Source of the DNA: Hydrolagus colliei
Lineage: Eukaryota
Reading direction: 5' to 3'
DNA: 64,000 nucleotides
Assembly: GCA_035084275.1 (NCBI GenBank)
Contig: CM068750.1
Location: forward strand, 7,874,001 to 7,938,000
This document shows, piece by piece, positions 32,810-50,967 of this stretch. Below the pieces are notes generated by a model. That model was not told where the DNA came from and made no database searches. It worked only from the letters and a program-made list of their open reading frames with translations. The position numbers and the translations under genes were made by a program. Position 1 is the stretch's first letter. Each line of letters opens with the position of its first letter.

Positions 32810-32997
32810 TCAGCTGGCATCCATTCGCAGTTTCTTTCTGGTCTGGGGTTCTTCTGTTTCTGACTCAGAAGTCGAATCAGAGCCCCCATCAAAGGCAGAA
32901 ACTGCACTACCCTTGGGATTGGTGTATAAGCTGCTGTCGGAAGATGAGAAGTTGGCTTGTAGCTGAGCAGCTGTCCGTGCCTTTTCCAGTGCACGTA
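32810..32997 (-). CDS. MAX: MAX last coding exon (zipper end, acidic region, NLS)
   Basis: (V)[61 protein letters not shown]; acceptor ttgcag|; 188 nt. Confidence 0.97.
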
Positions 32998-35580: not shown

Positions 35581-35789
35581 TTAGGGAAAAGGGTTTATTT
35601 TCCATTCATATAAATCCATTTCTTATTGGATGATTACAAACTGAAATTTGTACAAAAATGTAATCTAAACTGAGCCCAATACAATGTAATTTCATTTAAC
35701 AGCCTCTTAAAACACTGCTGGTGACCTCAAACATAAACATTATGCGCAAAGGTTTGAATCATGATAACCACAATTTTACATACCCTTAC

Positions 35790-35913
35790 CTTGCTGCTCA
35801 AGCAGAGCGTTCTGTCGCTTCAGATCATCAATGTCCTGCTGATGTGTGTGGTTTTTCCGCCTCATATACTGAATGTACTCTGTGGCTTTATCTAAGATTT
35901 GGGCACGAGATGC
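35790..35913 (-). CDS. MAX: MAX exon (helix 2 - leucine zipper)
   Basis: 124 nt, [41 protein letters not shown]; tag| acceptor and G|GTAAG donor. Confidence 0.98.
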
Positions 35914-39382: not shown

Positions 39383-40183
39383 CTAACAAAGAGTGGAAAA
39401 GGTAAATAAATTGTGCTCACTGTGTCTTCTGCTCTTCACCAAGATATCCGACAAACTATCTTCAGCCAGTGATACGACTTATTATTCCTTTTAATAATTT
39501 CCCCTACAATTAAGGACTTCAATTTTCTTATTGGTACACACTCCTCTACTTCACATTTGCTGTGGAATCTGAAACTAAATAATTTCCTTCCAAGTAACAA
39601 AGCATCAATGGGGATCTATGTAATTGTGAATAAACTGGACTTAAAATAATCTCACTGATTCTACTGGCTCGCTCCTTGGTACATCATTTGGCAAGCTTTT
39701 AAAATAACCACTTTGATTTGATTTTCACTGTAAAGAAATAGGATAATCATTTAAAATGTACAAATACAGTAATGAAATGAAGTTTTTTTTAAAAAAAAAT
39801 GTATTCATGCAACTTTCACAACTGAACCTGTGGTTGGGGATAAATTTTTTTTGTTATTTAAAGAACAAGTTCAGATGTTTATACATTTTCTTCCAGTGGT
39901 CACTATTTCAACATACTCAGGGGGGAAAAAAACACAACTTATGCCTAACATGTCTAATAGCGCTGTAAATGAGAAGGATGCACAAGGTCAATAAAATACA
40001 TTTTCTCCAGTATATAGGTCAGAACTTACCCTCCCCCAAGTACAACATACAAACAAAACAGAAATTCAACAAACACACAATGCCATTTAAACCCTCTCCC
40101 CACCCAAGTTAACATTATTTCATTCAACAACCAACATTCAAATAAGTAGAAAAAAAGCTGCGGAACTTAACTGGAATACCGAC

Positions 40184-40291
40184 CTTTTCTCCCTGGAGTG
40201 ATGGTACGGAGTCACGTAAACTATGAAAGCTGTCTTTGATATGGTCCCTGCGTTTGCGCTCCAATGCATTATGGTGAGCTCTTTTGTCTGC
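40184..40291 (-). CDS. MAX: MAX exon (basic region - helix 1)
   Basis: 108 nt, [36 protein letters not shown]; AG/GT flanks. Confidence 0.98.
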
Positions 40292-42730
40292 CTGCAAGAC
40301 AATTTGCATTCCTTAGTATGTATTTAACTTAAAATTGAGCAATTTTCAAAAAAAACACATTTCAGCATTATCTCTTGGTTTCTGCCAACTATTGTTCATT
40401 TTCAACTGAAACATGGATAGGTTTAAAAATACATTTCAGTTGTTGCACATTTGATACTACAATTGAAGAAAGACTGCAGCAGGAACTGCAAATCACCAAG
40501 CATAGTTAAAACCAAGATCCTCAACAAAATGAACTACCAGTTCATTTGGTTTGGTACTACATTTACATAAAAATTAAAATATTCACAAAATACTTGAATC
40601 TTTTATGCCTTTGGAAGCAAAAATGATCAGTTCCAAGCAGATACTTATTTGTCAAATGTAGCCTTGAGTTTTTTTTTGCTTCATCTAACTTGGACTGAAA
40701 TCGACAGTTAAAAGTACAGTGCCGATGAGAACTGTGTAAACTGTAAAAGTGAGAAAAAAAGTACTACTTATCAGTTTGTAAATGGAATATGAATCAATAT
40801 TCCAAAACACACCACACAACTAAAAAAGAACCATAATATGAAGCTTGTCACCATGTGCCCATAAATACAACTACTTTACAGTAAATCCTGTGAAACGTTT
40901 TGAGATGTTTTGTTGACATAAGGCACCATATCCAATATAAGAATTATTCTCTCAAAATATTAAACAGTATCCTCAACAGGGTGGAAAAAGCAGAAACAAA
41001 CAAAAATACTTAACTGGTTTTACAACTATATTAATAATCAAAATTGTTACACCCATGGTAATTTATGCCGTAGGGTTAGGTCACTTTTTCATAATTAGAC
41101 GTATACAACCATTAAGGTGTGCAATTTTATTTAGTCACTAAAATAGTACCTTGTAAACCAGATGAACATTGATAAGGAATGAGCATGAAACTTTGGCATG
41201 GAATTATATTGCCAAAATATATTGTGCAGGTTTCTTGCAGTTGAAATAATTACTTATAAGAAACATTGCTTGAAACCTATGTTGTTGAACTGTGGAAATG
41301 AAGTCTTTGGTCAACCAACTCTTGGTTTATCAACCACACAACAAAAACGTGCACATGGGGCTGGAGGATTGTACACTGGGTCTTCAACCTACAATCAGCA
41401 ATCATTGACATCTGCCCACAAATGTAAATATTACTGCTCATCACATGAAAATGTGCAGGCCTATATTCCACGAAGATTGCTTAAACATTAGCATTTGAAT
41501 ATTTCAAACCACAGGGCTTCATCAGAAAGTTTCAAAAGTGATCCGCAGGCAAAATGCATTTGCCTGTTGCTAACTTTGTTGACTTGTCCAGGGCTCAATT
41601 ACTCGGTACTTCCTGGAGTCCATTTTATGTTTCAATGTGCACAGTTATTAAAACTCTCATGTTAACTCAAGTTTCATAATTGATATATTTAAAAAAATAT
41701 ATTTCGTGCATTGCCAGCACAATAACTTCGTGAAGCATTTGGACAAAATTGAAAAAAAAACATACTTTGTACGTTTACACAACGACAAAAGAGGAAGGAA
41801 ATACAACGTCACGATAAGATCTGAAATGTTTGTTTGTCAGAGCTTGTGTTAATTAAGTACACATTTTGCACGTACGTGAAAAGTGGGGGAGGAGAACACA
41901 TTGCCCTTTTCCCAAAATGTTGGGAAAAGGGCAATGTTAAACGACGGATTTCTGGTACAATGTTTGTCGACCAGAAATAAAGCTTCGATGGTTGTAAATA
42001 GGACGCGCTGAGACTTGTGGGAGGGGATTACACACCGATTTCTATTGAAACCAAAAGAAAATGGACACGACGTCGAGTTTGCAGACACAAAAAAACGCCT
42101 CGCGTCTCGGAAACGGGAAGAGGGGAAATAAATGATCCCGGGGTTTCATTTTGGGGCATATTTAATGATCAGGCCTTCGTTTCAAGATACACACACACAC
42201 ACACACTCACTCTTTCTCTCTATCTCTCTCTCTCGAGGCTTTATAGCTGGCTAATCGCCCTGTGCCAAGCTGTCACGAACAAGCAACACCCTAGTGTTGA
42301 ACTCTCTTCCCTTCCTCCCACCCTCCCTCCGTGCCTCAACATGCACACCGCTTCCCTCCCACCCTCCGCCGGACACTTCGCTCCGCTCCATTTCCTCACA
42401 CCGCCTTTCCCCTTAATAAGGCACATTTGCGGCACTGATTGTAGCCCATTCCTCCCCCGTTTCTCCTTCTGGCTCACGGCCTTCTCTCACTTACTTATAC
42501 ACGCAAGCCAAATCCACACAAGCCAAATTCCCCCCCCCACCACCACCACGAAAAGGCTTCACCCAGCGATGGCGCAGGTGGAGGATGATCGGTTTTATTT
42601 TCGTTACAAAATTAAGGTTTTCTCCCACTATTTGGAGGATTTTTTATGTGGGGTGGGGGAAACAAGTCGTCAATAGGGAGGGGGTGGCAGCCTCTACGTT
42701 AATCCCCCCACCACCAACCCCCTAATGTAC

Positions 42731-42760
42731 CGCTGTGCGGAATCCGCTCGACTGATCTTA
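42731..42760 (-). other. MAX: Homologue of the MAX alternative exon 2, beginning with a TAA stop
   Basis: TTTTTTTTCCTTCAG|TAA GAT CAG TCG AGC GGA TTC CGC ACA GCG|GTACAT = *DQSSGFRTA vs mammalian EEQPRFQSA. Confidence 0.6.
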
Positions 42761-42957
42761 CTGAAGGAAAAAAAACAGGCACAAGTGCACAAATTGATCA
42801 TAAAAGGAGGGGAAATGGGGGGGTGGCCGCTTCACACATCGACGAAGTATGGGGGGAGAAGGGGAATAATCCACAGTTTAAGAAACAGAAAAGAAACGAA
42901 TGGCGGAAAAGGGAGAAAAAAACACACAAAAAAATTGCGTTAAAAAAACAGACTTAC

Positions 42958-42993
42958 GTCACTTTCGACCTCGATATCATCGTTATCGCTCAT
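42958..42993 (-). CDS. MAX: MAX coding exon 1
   Basis: MSDNDDIEVESD, 36 nt, donor GAC|GTAAG; the four constitutive exons total 456 nt = 151 aa. Confidence 0.98.
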
Positions 42994-43189
42994 GCTTTTC
43001 GAACCAATCTTTACGACTTTTTAAAGACACAACACTATAGTTAATGGGTTTGTGACTAGGACGAGGAAAAGGGGGGTAAAAAAAACACAAGGGGGTTGGG
43101 GGGGGGGGAAATAAAAAAAACACAACTGAAAGCACTCGTGACTCCGCTACCACCACCACCCGACAGGCCAGGGACCCCACGGGACATCA

Positions 43190-43460
43190 GCTCCCGGCTC
43201 GGCCCGAGACTGCGCCTGCGCTGTGCTGCCCCAGCCACCCGGGCATGCCGGGATTTGTGGTTTGTTCTCTGTAGTGGCGCCATGTCTACTGCAGGCTCTG
43301 CCACTACATCTCCCGTCGGGCCATCGTTTCACCCTCGGGGGTCGACAGGAACCGGAAATATGTCATCTGTGCAGCGGTGCCAATCGGGATTTGTAGTCTC
43401 TCCCTGTCTTGTTGTTGTCTCTACTTTGCTACGGGCGCTCCCACAATGCTCGGCGGTCGG
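43190..43460. promoter_or_regulatory. MAX CpG-island promoter with NRF1, ETS, CCAAT and four ZNF143/THAP11-type motifs
   Basis: TGCGCCTGCGC 43211-43221; ACCACAAATCCCGGCATGCCC (-) 43241-43261; ACTACATCTCCC 43303-43314; ACCGGAAAT 43351; CCAAT 43380; ACTACAAATCCC (-) 43386-43397; TCCCACAATGC 43439-43449. Confidence 0.8.
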
Positions 43461-44126
43461 AGTGGAGGGGAAAATGGTGGATGTTAGGAAGTTAAATTCA
43501 CCTGCGCGTTGGTAAGGATGGGTCTGCGAGGATTTAAAAACTCTCACCTCCCGTAAATATAATAATAATAAATCATCTTTTAGGGATTCATGTGTTCCCA
43601 ATGAAAGAGTTGCAGCTTGTCCTGAAAAAAAAACATTAGTCCCTGGTGCACGAAACAAAATCTTTCCACTGGAGTCGACCGCCTTTTTAATTTATTTAAA
43701 AATTATTTTTACGTGAACATCGACAGTAATTTGTTCTACTAAAGTCAGCGGTGTTCTTCTTGGTCTGTGTTTCGTGTTTACAGGTCTGTAACAATGAAAG
43801 AACAAGAAAAGCATCCAATGACTTGATTGCCACTCTCAACAGCAGCTTGCACTTGTACTCTCCCTCCAGCAGTAGAACCACATATTGTCAGGATAGGTTT
43901 CCCCAAGTCAATGAGTTTTATCCTGTTTGCCTGTGAGGTCCATCCAGTTACAAGTAGGAGCCAGCTGTGCCCTGTATCGCCACCATTGGGATGGATGGGG
44001 TTGGAAGCTGATGGAGACATCAGGAATAGGAATGGAGTGAAATGTGCAGCTTTCTGCAGTAACTCAGCACCCTGTTCATGTTATTCCAACCCCTGGTTTA
44101 TTCCGATGCGTCTATCGCTTGTTAAG

Positions 44127-44260
44127 TGTCAGCTTGGTTCTGTTGGCAAAACTCACCTCTTGAGTCAAAAGGCTGTGAGCTCAAACCCCATATCAGGACT
44201 ACGGTACTTTGTATTCTGGGATGACACTTACATGCTCTATTGGCCTTGTACTGCAAAGGA
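44127..44260 (+). mobile_element. Old tRNA-SINE head fragment (SacSINE1-like)
   Basis: GTCAGCTTGGTTCTGTTGG...GAGTCAAAAGGCTGTGAGCTCAAACCCC: degenerate A/B boxes; family name from memory. Confidence 0.4.
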
Positions 44261-45993
44261 AAATATTTACTGTTAAAGTGTTGCTGTGCGGGAGTTTTTT
44301 TTTCTAATACTGAGCTTTTTAATGATGACAGCCAAGCTGTGTTTGCTATGATTTCATCAAGCATTCTTTTGAATGGATTTCCAGTTGGGATGAAGTTATG
44401 AATCGGTCTGTATTTTACTGCAAATGATTTATTGGTGTCATATTTATATGTACTTTTAACCCTGGTAGAAGGATTTATGTACAGAAATATTTGAGTTGTC
44501 TTTTGTCCAAGTTGCAATAATAAAATAATTCAGTTATTCTGACATCTTTTTGTTGATAAATCTTATATTTACAACACGTTTTACTATCTTTTATGTTTCT
44601 GCCATAACTTGAGACTTGTTAGCTCTTCTGTGTTTGTATTGAAAGTCAGAACTAATAGTAAGAACTAACTAGATTTCCGTGCGCAATTGGCTGCTAGGCC
44701 AATATTTATGATATCAGGTAACACAACTTCACCTGGCTTTGAAATTGTCACACAAACTGTAAAATTGTTGTCTGAAGTCACGGGTATATGAAATTCATAA
44801 CTGGCAATGATAGAATCACATGAATAAGAATGAAACAGTCAATTAACCCACATGTTAGGGATAAAACACCAGCAATATTGTAGGAAGAGGAGAACTATCA
44901 ATCATGATCACCTTGACCCAATCAGAATAAATGCTTCAGGCCAGAAGAAGAAAGCATACTCAGACAATAATGAGCAACACCATCAACCTGTGCCTCTGGA
45001 TGGAGAGCAGTGGTGAATCTGGTATGTCTTGCAAAATAAAGAGTTTTGTGCTGAATGGTGGTAGATGTTCAGTTAAGTAAATACTGTATACGTGTGGAGT
45101 ATATTTGTGAATGTATGTGACGTGTTTCCTACTGAAATTATTGCACGTGACTGTGGTGTACATCCTCAGAATTTTTTTATTGTTAAACACAATGTTATCA
45201 TAAGTTTGAAGGCCAGCTAAAGAAGCACAGAAACAAACATTCAGCTTGTTCATTGAATAAGCTTCGTAAATCATAAAATCTATTTATTCAGTCCAGGAAC
45301 TGGATACCCTTACTAAATTTCAACACCAATAATAGTTTTGAGATAATCTTTTGTTAGATTTCTTTAAGTAGTTGCTCCCCAAGTAAAACCGAAATATTGG
45401 ATAAGGGAGAGAATAAAGAAAATAACCTATCAGTATTTCTTTTGTTTGTTCACCAATTCTGGGTATAGATTTACCTACTTATTTTCTCAGGTAATAATGT
45501 GTAAGGACCTAAAGAGGTTGGAATTTATTTTGTTAAAAGGGTTGCTATGTTTAGAGAACAAGAGCTTTAATATCATCTGTCTGAATTAAATTAACTTGAT
45601 ACTTTGATAGGATTTGGCAACCACTTTTATTGTACCTATCACCACATTTCTGTGTCGTATTTCTCTCATGTACTTTGCAGCAGCTGTTTTTTGTCACAAA
45701 TATTTCTTTCTCTTCTGAAGGTTATGATGACTCCTTTTCGCTCGGTTACTAGAAAACCGTTTCATATGTGCAAGATAGCATTGGGTATTTTATCCAAGTG
45801 GATATTATTTTTTGTTTGAGTCTTGATTGTTGTCAGTTATATGAACATGGGAAGTGACCAATATTGCTCTCAGCTGATATGTTCATAGAAACACCTTTAA
45901 GCAGATATTATCAGTTTGTGATGAGAAGCAGGAAACCTTAAGATTTTGTTAGGAATGGGATTCCAGAGTGTATGACCTGGAGAGAGGGAACTA

Positions 45994-47545
45994 AACAACA
46001 ACAAAATTACACTTGTATAGCACCTTTCACATCAGGAGGGTGTCCCAATGTGCTGGACAGTCATTGTTTCAGACCTAAGCTAGGGTCAGTGATAGGGAGG
46101 GTAGAGGGAAAGGGGGGAATTTGTGATGATGGATGGGACCATCAAAGAAGAGGGTCTTGAGGCGGGCTTTGAAGGAGGACAGGGAGCGGGCGAGGCGGAA
46201 GGACTACTGGATGGAGTTCCAGTGGTTGGGGGCAGAGTGGCTGAAGGCTCACCCACCATTGGTAGGCCGTGTGGGTCAAGGGATATTTAACAGGCTGCAA
46301 CCTGCTGAGCAGAGGAGACAGGCAGGTTAGAAGGGGGGTTAGAAGGTTGCAGATGTAGCATTGAATGTGAGGACCAGGATCTTGAATTGGATCCTCTGGG
46401 TGATGGGGAGTGAATGGAGTCGGATGAGGATGTGGGAAATGGAGTCACAAAGTTTGGAGCGGTAGAGGACACGGGCTGCAGAATTCTGGATTATCCGCAA
46501 CGTATGGATGGAGGAATTGAGAAGGCCGACAAACAAGGCATTTGTGTAATCGAGCCAGGATGTAATGAAAGGATGAATGAGTTTTTCAGTGGCCTTGGGC
46601 TAAGGTAATGGCATAGTCGGACAATATTGTGGAGGTGAGGGAAGGTAGAAAGTGTCATTGCTTAGATATGGGGGAGGAAAGACAGTTGAGGTTCGAACAA
46701 GACATCTCGGTTCCTAACTGGCATGGTGAGGTTGAGTGTGCAACCATGGAGGTTGATGCTGCCAGGCCAGATGCGTGAAGGCGCTGGCGCAAGCCAATCA
46801 GGAGGACCTCTGTCATGTTGACATTCAACTGTAGAAAGTTAGCTCTCACCCAGGACTTGATGTCTGATAGGCTATCTGTCAGGACAATAGTAATCCCGGA
46901 GTTTTAGTAGAAGAAGAAAGATAGAATTGGGTGTTGTCCGCCTACATGTGGAAGTTAACCCCATGTTTGCAGATGATAGGGGTGCATGTAGATGTTAAAA
47001 AGTAGGGGGCCAAGGACAGAGCCCTGGGGGAACACCACAGGTCACAGTGCAGGGGCTAGAAGAGAAACTTTGTGGGAACAAAGTGGAAACGAGAAAGGTA
47101 GGAGTCGAACCAGGCAAGGGCAGGTCCATGGAGATTGAGCTGGGAGGAGAGGCGGCGTAGGAAGATGGAGTGGTCGACAGTGTCGAAGGCAGCAGAGAGG
47201 GCGAGGAGGACAAAGAGGCAGAGATGTAGGGGTTCGAAGAGGGAATGGTGAGAGAGAAAGGAGTGAAGCTGGAAGCAACAACTCGTTCCAGGGCCTTAGA
47301 GAGGAATGGGAGGTTGGAGATGGGGGTGGTAGCTGGAGTGTTTTTTCAAGATGGGGTGATGACAGCAGTTTTTAGAGGGGTGGGAACAGTGCCACTGGAT
47401 AGGGAGAGGTTGATGATGTTAGTTAGAAGTGGGGCTAGGAGATGGAGCTGGGAGATGAGAGGGGTGGAGATGGGGTCAAGGGAGCATAGCAGGTGGATTT
47501 CATTTTTCGGATGAGAGCAGAGAAGGCAGGGGGAGAGATAGGGTC
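45994..47545 (-). mobile_element. L2 LINE, 5'-truncated (about 1.55 kb), decayed RT
   Basis: Minus strand: TCGVPPG, HM*ADNTQFY, ANFLQLNVNMTEVL, IIQNSAARVL, QRIQFKILVLTF; tail GTGAAAGGTGCTATACAAGTGTAATTTTGTTGTTG. Confidence 0.92.
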
Positions 47546-48919
47546 AAAGGTATATATTTGCCAAGGATATGAAGCAGGTACATGCATGTAATTTTTACAG
47601 TTTACAGGGTCAATGGTCAATATTCTTGTGTATTGGCCAGGATACTAGGGAAAATAATATTTTTCTTTTTGAATACTATTATGGGTTCTAAGTTGGATGG
47701 AGTCTGATAAGAATGATTGAAGAATGTTTGTAGAAGGAGCACCTTGATGGATAATAAGCCTTGTTTTTACCCATTCTTTCTTATGTGATCAGACGCTTCA
47801 ATCACAGTTTTTTGTGGTAATCATAGGTCATTCTGGGAATAATGAATATTATGAAGCTATGGAATGAATTCCCTATCTGAACTCCTTCAATATAGGCATA
47901 ATCAATTCTGCCAGTTGAAATTAAATTATTGGAATAAAGCAAGAAAAAAAATTAAATTAATGCTGCATTGGAACATAACAATGTCTGAGAGATAAATGAA
48001 TGCAGAGTCAATGAAATCACATGGTAAATTAAACTTTATTTGAGCATACAGTTTGAGCGACTCACAAAGGCAAGATAATTAACCCAAACCAGAAATAACG
48101 AATCTGGTTATATAGAGGGCAAACATGTGAGTCATGGAGAAAAAGACTGAGTGGCAATTAAACTTCAATTAGCAAAACTGAGCAATACAAATTGATTAAC
48201 AGGATAAATCTAGAATTACCTGATTATATTTGGGATTGCAGGATTTTTCATTTGTTAATCTTCTGAATAGTGAACTACCTAACTTTTTAGAAAGAAAACA
48301 AACTGGAATGTATTACTCAAAGGGCAATATTTTTAATGGAAAATACTGGAAATCAATCAATCAATCAATCAGCATCAAAATTAGAAAATTGCACAAATAT
48401 TCAGGTGAGCAGCTCCTATCAACATTCCAGATTTTTAAAAGGGTGTTTTAAGTTTTGTATATTTTTCTCCCTGAGGATATATTTGAACAAAAAAAACACA
48501 AGATTGGAAGTGCTACATGCAGAAGTTTCATTATTGAAATCCTCTTAATCTTTTAGACTTGTTTGCTTTTTATTTCAGCTGTGGGAAATGTAATATGATG
48601 CTGAAGTGATTTAGAGCCATACATCTTCTTCCCACTGCAATTCTTCTATTGCACTTAGTAACTAAAGCAAAATACGAATGTTAGGAATTTATTTAAATTT
48701 CCCCAAATTCAAATTTTCCTTTGAATCATAAAACGGAGCGCTACATTTAATCAAACCCTGCAATATTTAAAAAATGCAGCAGGGGGTGCTGCACACTGCT
48801 GGGAATCACATCACAAAGATTTCACTATCTGATCCAGAACTCTTGTGCCTTGTGTGTTTGTAAATTGCAAATAGATAAAACACTTTCAAGACTGAGATTG
48901 ACAGTTTTTTTTTAAAAGC

Positions 48920-49048
48920 TTAAGGGATACGGGGATAGGGCGCGTAAATGGAATTTGGAGAGAAGATCTGCCCAGGTCTTATTAAATGGCGGGGCAGGCT
49001 TGAGTAGCCGAATGGCCTACTCCTGCTCCTAATTCTAATGTTCTTATG
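48920..49048 (+). mobile_element. CR1 LINE 3' end
   Basis: AAGGGATACGGGGATAGGGCG...GCCGAATGGCCTACTCCTGCTCCTAATTCTAATGTTCTTATG. Confidence 0.75.
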
Positions 49049-50967
49049 TAAATGTTGCCCTTTAGTAACTTTCTAAGAGCAACACTACTAAGGTGTTCAA
49101 TGTATTTCGCAGATTCCAAGCACACAAAAATATTTGTCAATACAATTTATGTAATCCCATGTCATGAAAAGGGCATGTCTGTGAGGTCTTTGGATAAGAC
49201 AATGAATCAACCAGACTATTCAGGACATCAACAACAACATCTTGCATTTATACTGTATCAGCACTCTTCAAGTAGGATGGAGTGTCAGAGTGCTTCAGTA
49301 TATTGAGCTGTTAATAAATTGAAATGCTCACATTTTTATATAGCAGTCATTGTCATCTTTTATAAGTGATTCATCATCGGTAATACAACTTCTGGTCTGT
49401 GAAGTCGAATGGAAAGGTCATAACATTAGGCCTTTTACAGCTCAAGTTTACAAGTCCTGCAAACTCACACTTTATCAGGTCTGTGTGGTAACCACCTGGC
49501 ATATTCGCCCTGCAACACTTCCTTTCTTGATTCCCATCTATTGATTAATTGATTATCCTCATCGCCTGGTTCCCTTCTTCTGACTATGCAGCATGACTAT
49601 GGCTTGGGAATCCGTTCTACTCTTTTTGAATTGAATGTCACTCCTTGTTGCTGAATAGTGTATATCATTGTTTTATTAGATTGTGTATAAAAGATGCAAA
49701 TGCCAGTGAATCAATTATTTGGGATTTTGCTGCAGAATGTCAACACATTGATGCAAATTTAGGTGAATTTAATAGATAGCTGATGTCCTATCCGTCTCGT
49801 CAGTTTCATCAACTGCATCTAGACTACGAATATTTACTGGATCATTTCACCCTGACTAGGAGGGTACTACTACTGAGCATGAATGCACATTTCATTTATC
49901 CCATTAATGGCCAAGTTATCTGCTGGGTTTCTTTATTATGATACAAACTGGCTTTAGAACATCCAGTAATCAGCTGAAATTATTTCTTAATGACGTCAAA
50001 ATGATTACTCATTCATGTGAATAACTCGATAAAGAGTGCAGTGATTTTGGTATCTGCTTAGGCAATGCAGCCAGTACAAATAGGGATCTATATAATTGTA
50101 CCTCTGTGCCTACAGTCTGTGAACCCTCCACCCATTCATTTATGAGTCAATGAGCTTTGCCTTAAGAAGGAGGGAGGAGGGAGCATAAATAAATGATCAT
50201 GGGCTGGTTATTATACCTGCTTGTCGCGAAAAAAAATGTTAACTTCTAATTACATGTTACAATCCGGGTATTACCTGTACCATTTATACTTAACCAGCTC
50301 CTGCAGGATACTAACCTCTTGGAAATGTTGTGTAAATGAGGCTAACTGGAAGCAGGAACGATAAGAGAAATAGCTTCATGATGAGACTGTAAAAGAGCTC
50401 ATTAACACATGCTGGATTCATCATTATTGCCAGCTTCTGCTCACATTATCTCGGAAGTGATACAAACATCTTCAATCTGAGCCAGGTCTTAACATTGCAA
50501 TAGTACCCTTCAATCACGTTTGGTTTTTTTTTAATGAACCACACATGAAATGGATGTAAATAAATCCCAATAATTAATGTGTCCTTTCTCTTATGTATTC
50601 AAATCTATCAATGTTCCATTACTGCAGAATGTAAAATCTACTCTTTGCCGCAGTATGTTTTTGATCTTTTATTAACCAGGAGCTCTTTGATCTTATTCAG
50701 ATTGAATTATCAATTTCCTTTCAGACCAAAGTGCTCGGAATCTGACCTGGTTTCAGAAGCAGGCGGATGTGTTCTATGTTATGCCTGGGCTTTCAGCCAG
50801 TGCAACATTGCTATTTGTGTGTGGATTCTTCTGTCATTATATGTTGTAGATCACAGACAAAGCAGAAAAAACTCGATAAGGTGCTATACCAAATGCAAGG
50901 ATTATTATTTTTACAAACACAAGACTAGTTATGGGGAATTGAGATATAAAATAGCTCCCATTTTACA

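What the first reader, a model, noticed from the sequence alone, without database searches (positions are those of the whole stretch)
42731..42775. MAX exon-2 homologue converted to a stop-containing (poison) or shortened micro-exon
Seen: 197 nt after exon 1 there is a strong acceptor, then TAA GAT CAG TCG AGC GGA TTC CGC ACA GCG and donor |GTACAT. The translation *DQSSGFRTA aligns with the mammalian 9-aa p22 exon EEQPRFQSA, with TAA in place of the first GAA. Inclusion would stop MAX after 12 residues, turning the long/short isoform switch into an on/off switch for the obligate MYC partner. Alternatively, the internal CAG acceptor gives an in-frame 21-nt exon (SSGFRTA, 42731-42751). A single-base assembly error is also possible.
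Basis: partly seen in the sequence, partly recalled or inferred. Interest (0 to 1): 0.7.

Follow-up and report, generated by a model that had tools for sequence, protein, structure and literature searches.

The report
Vestigial MAX exon 2 in chimaera
A chimaera-type fish carries a real, stop-containing remnant of the small optional exon that gives other vertebrates the long form of the MYC partner MAX; relatives' RNA skips it, so it is likely a dead leftover of a lost isoform rather than an on/off switch.

Summary
In a single-copy MAX gene (protein 150/151 identical to Callorhinchus milii), a 30-nt AG…GT segment at 42760–42731 begins with TAA and is the positional orthologue of exon 2, the 9-residue p22 insert. 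It is not an assembly slip: a read-derived contig of the same organism (depth 46) is identical. The poison-switch reading finds no support. The exon has drifted (at least 5 base changes plus a 3-nt insertion against the shark/ray peptide), and its donor is weak. In a close relative's raw RNA reads, 46 join exon 1 to exon 3 and none lie on the segment. A more distant relative's DNA bridges the region with unlike sequence, and its RNA contigs skip it. None of 6 C. milii models has the exon. A stop at codon 13 would likely escape NMD, so decay should not fully hide inclusion. Best reading: a vestigial pseudo-exon, with p22 MAX lost in holocephalans (0.75). A rare, tissue-specific poison exon stays open (about 0.13), because no RNA of this species was available and the upstream branch-point region is still shark-like.

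The parts
42958..42993 (-). MAX exon 1, coding part (MSDNDDIEVESD); donor GAC|GTAAGT
   Evidence: spliced to exon 3 in X1, X4, X20
42780..42808 (-). Intronic element upstream of the exon-2 acceptor (branch-point-like TGAT at 42800, TGC words at 42789 and 42781), still similar to the shark Heptranchias
   Evidence: in-frame reading SFYDQFVHL against SLYDHFVHL of P0016, minimum 2 base changes in 27; its role is inferred
42761..42779 (-). Polypyrimidine tract and CAG acceptor of the exon-2 remnant
   Evidence: 15 of 17 pyrimidines
42731..42760 (-). Vestigial MAX exon 2 (30 nt, *DQSSGFRTA); further AGs at +4 (26 nt, frameshift) and +9 (21 nt, in frame)
   Evidence: identical in read contig X15; no inclusion seen in relatives
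42700..42730 (-). Weak donor GCG|GTACAT followed by G-runs
   Evidence: 5 of 9 consensus positions; 13.6% of 558 decoy GTs pair with U1 as well or better
40184..40291 (-). MAX exon 3 (basic region, helix 1); alternative donor at 40171 adds VGIP
   Evidence: VGIP also in C. milii models
35790..35913 (-). MAX exon 4; alternative donor at 35783 adds GK
   Evidence: GK also in C. milii models
32811..32997 (-). MAX last coding exon
   Evidence: 98% to C. milii

Best explanation
The segment is the orthologue of MAX exon 2, with a real TAA as its first codon, and it is likely a vestigial pseudo-exon that is skipped, so this fish would make only short (p21-type) MAX. Shown: position, stop, drift of the coding sequence, weak donor, skipping in two relatives, no alignable counterpart in one of them. 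Inferred: exon 2 was ancestral in jawed vertebrates; holocephalans stopped needing it; inclusion fell; the sequence then drifted (amino-acid changes, an in-frame insertion, the stop). Splice dinucleotides and part of the upstream element survive because decay is incomplete. The more distant relative has eroded or deleted it further. Any residual inclusion would be leak, not regulation.
For: Release from protein constraint: 4 of 9 residues changed plus an insertion, against 4 of 151 in the rest of MAX versus a ray (Fisher p=3e-4). All 51 nine-residue inserts among 137 anchored MAX proteins start with E or D, and none has 7 or 10 residues. Raw reads of organism G (47 of 86 laid reads 99+% alike): 46 exon1-exon3 reads, 0 joints to the segment, depth 0 over 42720-42883; 95% upper bound 6%. 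Organism A: contigs of X1 (depth 363) and X4 (depth 79.5) join exon 1 to exon 3 directly. Organism A DNA contigs X17 and X19 both skip 42593-42887 with 202 unlike letters, while other intron islands align at 93-95%. 0 of 6 C. milii models (RefSeq X1-X5 plus one UniRef model) have the insert. Weak donor. At the observed drift (about 0.19 per site) AG and GT would both survive by chance with p about 0.44. A stop 37 nt into the coding sequence lies in the start-proximal zone where NMD is usually weak in human cells (10.64898/2026.03.24.714003, passages), so decay should hide inclusion only partly.
Against: No RNA of the window's species was laid, and G's own genomic exon 2 is unknown. G is one single-cell sample of unknown tissue, 27% of the run read. 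4 of 50 partly laid reads are unexplained and 2 loose-end rows were not shown (worst-case bound 17%). Contigs drop rare variants. The 202 letters in organism A were not displayed, so a diverged remnant there is not excluded. The acceptor is the most pyrimidine-rich of the MAX acceptors scored, and the upstream element is still shark-like (2 of 9 codons changed against 4 of 9 in the exon; difference not significant, p=0.62). The insertion kept the frame. X1's contig stops 30 nt into exon 3, which suggests another, unidentified sequence joins exon 3.
Confidence: 0.75

Rival explanations
1. Regulated poison exon: the old coding microexon was kept as a switch. Inclusion in some tissue or stage stops MAX after 12 residues and lowers MAX, and so MYC/MXD/MNT/MGA activity. 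Re-initiation could give at most an 87-residue piece lacking the basic region and most of the HLH.
For: Intact strong acceptor, intact GT, upstream element similar to a shark's, with TGC words at -29 and -21 (that UGC near the acceptor marks neural SRRM3/4 microexons is recalled, not tested). Free drift of the coding content is also what a poison exon would show. Human MAX is reported to be tuned by unproductive splicing (10.1101/2023.10.02.559746, abstract and passages; it does not mention exon 2).
Against: 0 inclusion against 46 skipping reads in organism G; skip-only contigs in organism A; region not alignable in organism A's DNA; weak donor; a start-proximal stop is a poor NMD trigger, although it would still block full-length protein.
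Confidence: 0.13
2. Shortened coding microexon: the acceptor moved 9 nt inward to the internal CAG, so the first 9 nt became intron (tolerating TAA) and a 7-residue insert SSGFRTA gives a 158-residue MAX.
For: CAG at 42752-42754 is present and keeps the frame; it would explain why TAA is tolerated.
Against: A stronger upstream CAG comes first (15 of 17 against 11 of 17 pyrimidines); 3 of the base changes and the insertion lie inside the 21 nt; no 7-residue insert among 137 anchored proteins; no such reads in G or contigs in A. Such a transcript has no stop, so decay could not hide it.
Confidence: 0.08
3. Assembly error or a private allele: the true base is G and the long isoform is normal.
For: X15 may be the assembly's own source, and contigs can hide a second allele.
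Against: X15 contig, depth 46, identical; the exon carries at least 4 further base changes and an insertion; C. milii models lack the insert too.
Confidence: 0.03

Closest known systems
MAX p22/p21 alternative exon 2 (9-residue cassette before the basic region)
   Same: Same gene, same position between exon 1 and exon 3, phase 0, C-terminal F-x-T-A retained. p22 (160 aa) and p21 (151 aa) differ by these 9 residues (PMC7226237, passages). The insert is found in sharks/rays (EEQPRFQTA), bony fish and tetrapods.
   Different: 30 nt instead of 27, begins with a stop, at least 5 base changes; no inclusion seen in relatives.
Lineage-specific loss of an alternative cassette exon (vestigial exon, pseudo-exonisation); general class, recalled
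   Same: Recognisable splice sites around a decayed coding sequence; skipped in RNA; further eroded in a sister lineage.
   Different: Nothing of kind; the case in MAX of holocephalans was not found in print in my searches.
Poison cassette exons coupled to NMD (for example in SR-protein genes; recalled) and unproductive MAX isoforms after HNRNPC loss (10.1101/2023.10.02.559746)
   Same: In-frame stop in a cassette exon of a dosage-sensitive regulator.
   Different: Typical poison exons are included at measurable levels, deeply conserved and trigger NMD. Here inclusion was not seen, the region is not conserved in organism A, and the stop is start-proximal.

Membership tests
MAX exon 2 orthologue | Lies between exon 1 and exon 3 of MAX, phase 0, AG..GT bounded | tested here: met
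MAX exon 2 orthologue | Sequence and flank similarity to shark exon 2 beyond chance | tested here: met
   rank 1 of 84 in the intron; adjacent upstream element is the top hit of the window for the Heptranchias read-through
Coding p22 exon | Open 27-nt frame coding a 9-residue E/D-start peptide | tested here: not met
   TAA first codon, 30 nt; 51 of 51 nine-residue inserts elsewhere start with E or D
Poison exon | Introduces an in-frame premature stop when included | tested here: met
   stop at nt 37 of the coding sequence
Poison exon | Actually included in transcripts | tested here: inconclusive
   0 inclusion, 46 skipping reads in organism G; skip-only contigs in organism A; own species not available
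Poison exon | Exon and flanks conserved among relatives | tested here: not met
   not alignable at 80% in organism A's bridging contigs, 2 runs (letters not shown); only the upstream element resembles a shark's
Poison exon | Inclusion isoform is degraded by NMD, rises on NMD block | not testable with these tools
   start-proximal position argues for weak NMD (human data)
Poison exon | Inclusion is regulated by tissue, stage or feedback | not testable with these tools
   tissues of the runs are not given
Vestigial pseudo-exon | Loss of protein-level constraint | tested here: met
   4 of 9 plus insertion against 4 of 151, p=3e-4
Vestigial pseudo-exon | Not included in mature mRNA | tested here: inconclusive
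   met in two relatives; own species untested
Vestigial pseudo-exon | Splice signals decay at background rate | tested here: inconclusive
   donor weak, acceptor strong; survival of AG and GT compatible with drift

The most novel reading that the evidence does not exclude
A coding microexon conserved across jawed vertebrates was converted, in one chimaera lineage, into a tissue-specific (for example neural or germ-line) stop exon. It would turn the p22/p21 choice into a dosage switch for MAX that acts by early termination rather than by NMD.
Probability: 0.13. Interest if true: 0.6.

Novelty: new member of a known kind. Interest (0 to 1): 0.22.

Why it matters
On the best reading it is a small evolutionary note: holocephalans appear to live without p22 MAX, a natural knock-out of an isoform whose separate role is poorly defined, and the remnant catches the loss midway. 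Models retrieved for skates, catsharks, horn shark and sawshark also lack the insert, which hints at repeated loss in cartilaginous fishes. If the poison reading were true it would be a clear case of a coding microexon reused as a dosage switch on the hub of the MYC network.

Tried and rejected
Assembly error: rejected. Second MAX copy or retrocopy with an intact exon 2: none; three own-genome searches gave only this locus plus three distant bHLH hits at 29-36%. Search for short C. milii models starting at the downstream Met, as an indirect sign of inclusion: none among 51 proteins of 33-107 aa. Search for other intron read-through models with P0016 residues 20-62: only itself, 1 of 6 candidates. 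Run search: no RNA holder on record was listed, and no RNA run of the window's organism; the 'RNA?' label of X1, X2 and X4 is the tool's guess, although X1 and X4 contigs are spliced. X16 and X2 did not cover the segment: no evidence either way. 8 of 22 listed runs were laid. Donor-like GTAAGA overlapping the acceptor and G-runs after the donor as silencers: weak hints only (12% of decoys pair as well; the exonic UAGG of the PMC1079783 code, abstract seen, is absent). The Fisher value printed used counts fixed beforehand (5/9, 3/151) and was replaced by the observed counts. Zebrafish microexon paper PMC12626424: no mention of max in the main text (supplements not read). PMC3177325: no passage on MAX isoforms. 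Earlier findings of the scan: none. MaxEntScan-type scoring was not available; U1 pairing energy and consensus counts are crude stand-ins.

Full report
Gene and organism. The window holds one MAX gene on the minus strand: coding exons at 42993-42958, 40291-40184, 35913-35790 and 32997-32811. Without the candidate exon they give a 151-residue protein that differs from Callorhinchus milii isoform X4 at 1 position and from a ray's MAX at 4. The alternative donors that add VGIP and GK in C. milii models are present. The organism is therefore a holocephalan (inference). The 1.0-Gb genome has no second MAX copy.

The observation. After a 197-nt intron there is an acceptor with 15 of 17 pyrimidines, then 30 nt reading *DQSSGFRTA, then GCG|GTACAT. 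Three AGs are available. The first gives a stop at codon 13, the one at +4 a frameshift (63-residue product), the one at +9 an in-frame SSGFRTA. Orthology to exon 2 rests on three things. It sits in the right place and phase. It ranks 1 of 84 in-frame AG..GT segments of this intron against the shark/ray peptide EEQPRFQTA (2 of 2963 window-wide). And a Heptranchias model that reads through the upstream intron has its best hit in the whole window immediately upstream of this acceptor, in frame (SLYDHFVHL against SFYDQFVHL). Each score is modest alone; their coincidence at one spot is not.

Is the stop real? A contig from run X15 (share of words 1.00; depth 46) spans 42560-43260 with 0 differences. 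It may come from the same sample as the assembly, so it excludes a consensus error, not a private allele. The exon also carries at least 4 more base changes and a 3-nt insertion relative to any coding of the shark/ray peptide, which no single error explains.

Constraint. The insert is old: among 137 of 247 retrieved proteins with both anchors, 84 have no insert, 51 have a 9-residue insert starting with E or D, 2 have odd long inserts, and none has 7 or 10 residues. These came from the best 120 of 557 hits plus cluster members, so the survey is partial. In the window 4 of 9 residues are changed, plus an insertion, against 4 of 151 elsewhere (p=3e-4). Protein-level constraint is gone. This fits a dead exon and a poison exon equally, so inclusion and conservation must decide.

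Inclusion. No RNA of the window's organism was listed. Organism G, offered as raw single-cell RNA reads, is a closer relative than organism A: 47 of 86 laid reads are 99+% alike, and it lacks most of A's 5'-UTR differences. In X20, 46 reads run from exon 1 directly into exon 3, no joint reaches the segment, and depth over 42720-42883 is 0. The 95% upper bound on inclusion is 6%, or 17% if all 4 unexplained partly laid reads were inclusion reads. In organism A (about 96% alike in the last exon and 3' UTR, from a word share of 0.30), contigs of X1 and X4, two studies, join exon 1 to exon 3; X2 did not cover exon 1. None of 6 C. milii models has the insert. A stop 37 nt into the coding sequence lies within the first 100-200 nt, where NMD is usually weak in human cells (10.64898/2026.03.24.714003, passages seen); transfer to fish is inference. 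So an included form should be at least partly visible, and the 21-nt form fully visible. Limits: one tissue sample of unknown kind, G's genomic exon unknown, contigs drop rare forms.

Conservation. In organism A's DNA, contigs of X17 and X19 both bridge 42592 to 42888 with 202 unlike letters in place of 295; X16 did not cover the stretch. The same runs lay other intronic islands at 93-95% identity (41979-42083, 42550-42592), so the method sees constrained intron where it exists. The exon, its acceptor and the upstream element are not among those islands. The 202 letters were not shown, so a diverged remnant is possible. Against a pure vestige stands the shark-like upstream element, which must have been under selection for most of this lineage's history. 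Its 2 of 9 changed codons do not differ significantly from the exon's 4 of 9 (p=0.62), and it was picked as a best local match.

Splice signals. The donor matches 5 of 9 consensus positions, and 13.6% of 558 intronic decoy GTs pair with U1 as well or better; the main MAX donors match 7-8 positions. The conserved VGIP alternative donor is as weak (4 of 9), so weakness alone does not rule out use. G-runs follow the donor, and the T at +1 also creates a donor-like word over the acceptor AG; both are hints only.

Mechanism. Most likely (0.75): exon 2 was ancestral, became dispensable in holocephalans, fell out of use and drifted, leaving a recognisable remnant here and little or nothing in organism A; MAX is made as the short form. 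Rivals: regulated poison exon (0.13), 7-residue exon (0.08), error or private allele (0.03).

Comparison and novelty. p22 and p21 MAX differ by this 9-residue exon (PMC7226237, passages). Unproductive MAX splicing is reported in human leukaemia cells, without mention of exon 2 (10.1101/2023.10.02.559746, abstract and passages; its supplements are closed and may list the events). Seven searches of the open library gave no paper on loss of this exon in cartilaginous fishes; most subscription papers are not held. Among 16 named chondrichthyan species have an insert-bearing model (Cetorhinus, Carcharodon, two Chiloscyllium, Mobula, Hypanus, Narcine, Heptranchias) and 8 have none among those retrieved (C. 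milii, Amblyraja, Leucoraja, Rhinoraja, two Scyliorhinus, Heterodontus, Pristiophorus). Missing models do not prove loss, but they suggest the exon is dispensable in this clade. Verdict: a real but probably ordinary vestigial exon; new member of a known kind; interest 0.22.

Noticed in passing
window 40171 and 35783 (minus strand): Alternative donors adding VGIP (exon 3) and GK (exon 4) match C. milii isoform models, so these small extensions look conserved among holocephalans; sharks have VGVL or VGNR at the first site.
   Followed up: partly
window 41979-42083 and 42550-42592: Intronic islands 93-95% identical to organism A's DNA in an otherwise poorly alignable intron; possible regulatory elements of MAX.
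   Followed up: no
protein sets: 8 of 16 named chondrichthyan species have no exon-2 model among those retrieved (skates, catsharks, horn shark, sawshark, C. milii): possible repeated loss of p22 MAX.
   Followed up: partly
P0016, P0172, P0173 (Heptranchias perlo): The three models seen that carry exon 2 (EEQPRVQTA, F changed to V) all read through the upstream intron rather than splicing from exon 1, which may mark weak use of the exon in this shark too.
   Followed up: no
P0002 (C. milii X5); run X1 at exon 3: An alternative MAC N-terminus in C. milii has no matching codons in window 40200-50000; X1's contig ends 30 nt into exon 3, suggesting another upstream sequence joins there.
   Followed up: partly
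window 42756-42764: The T at +1 of the remnant creates both the stop and a donor-like GTAAGA overlapping the acceptor AG; weak by U1 pairing (12% of decoys as good).
   Followed up: partly
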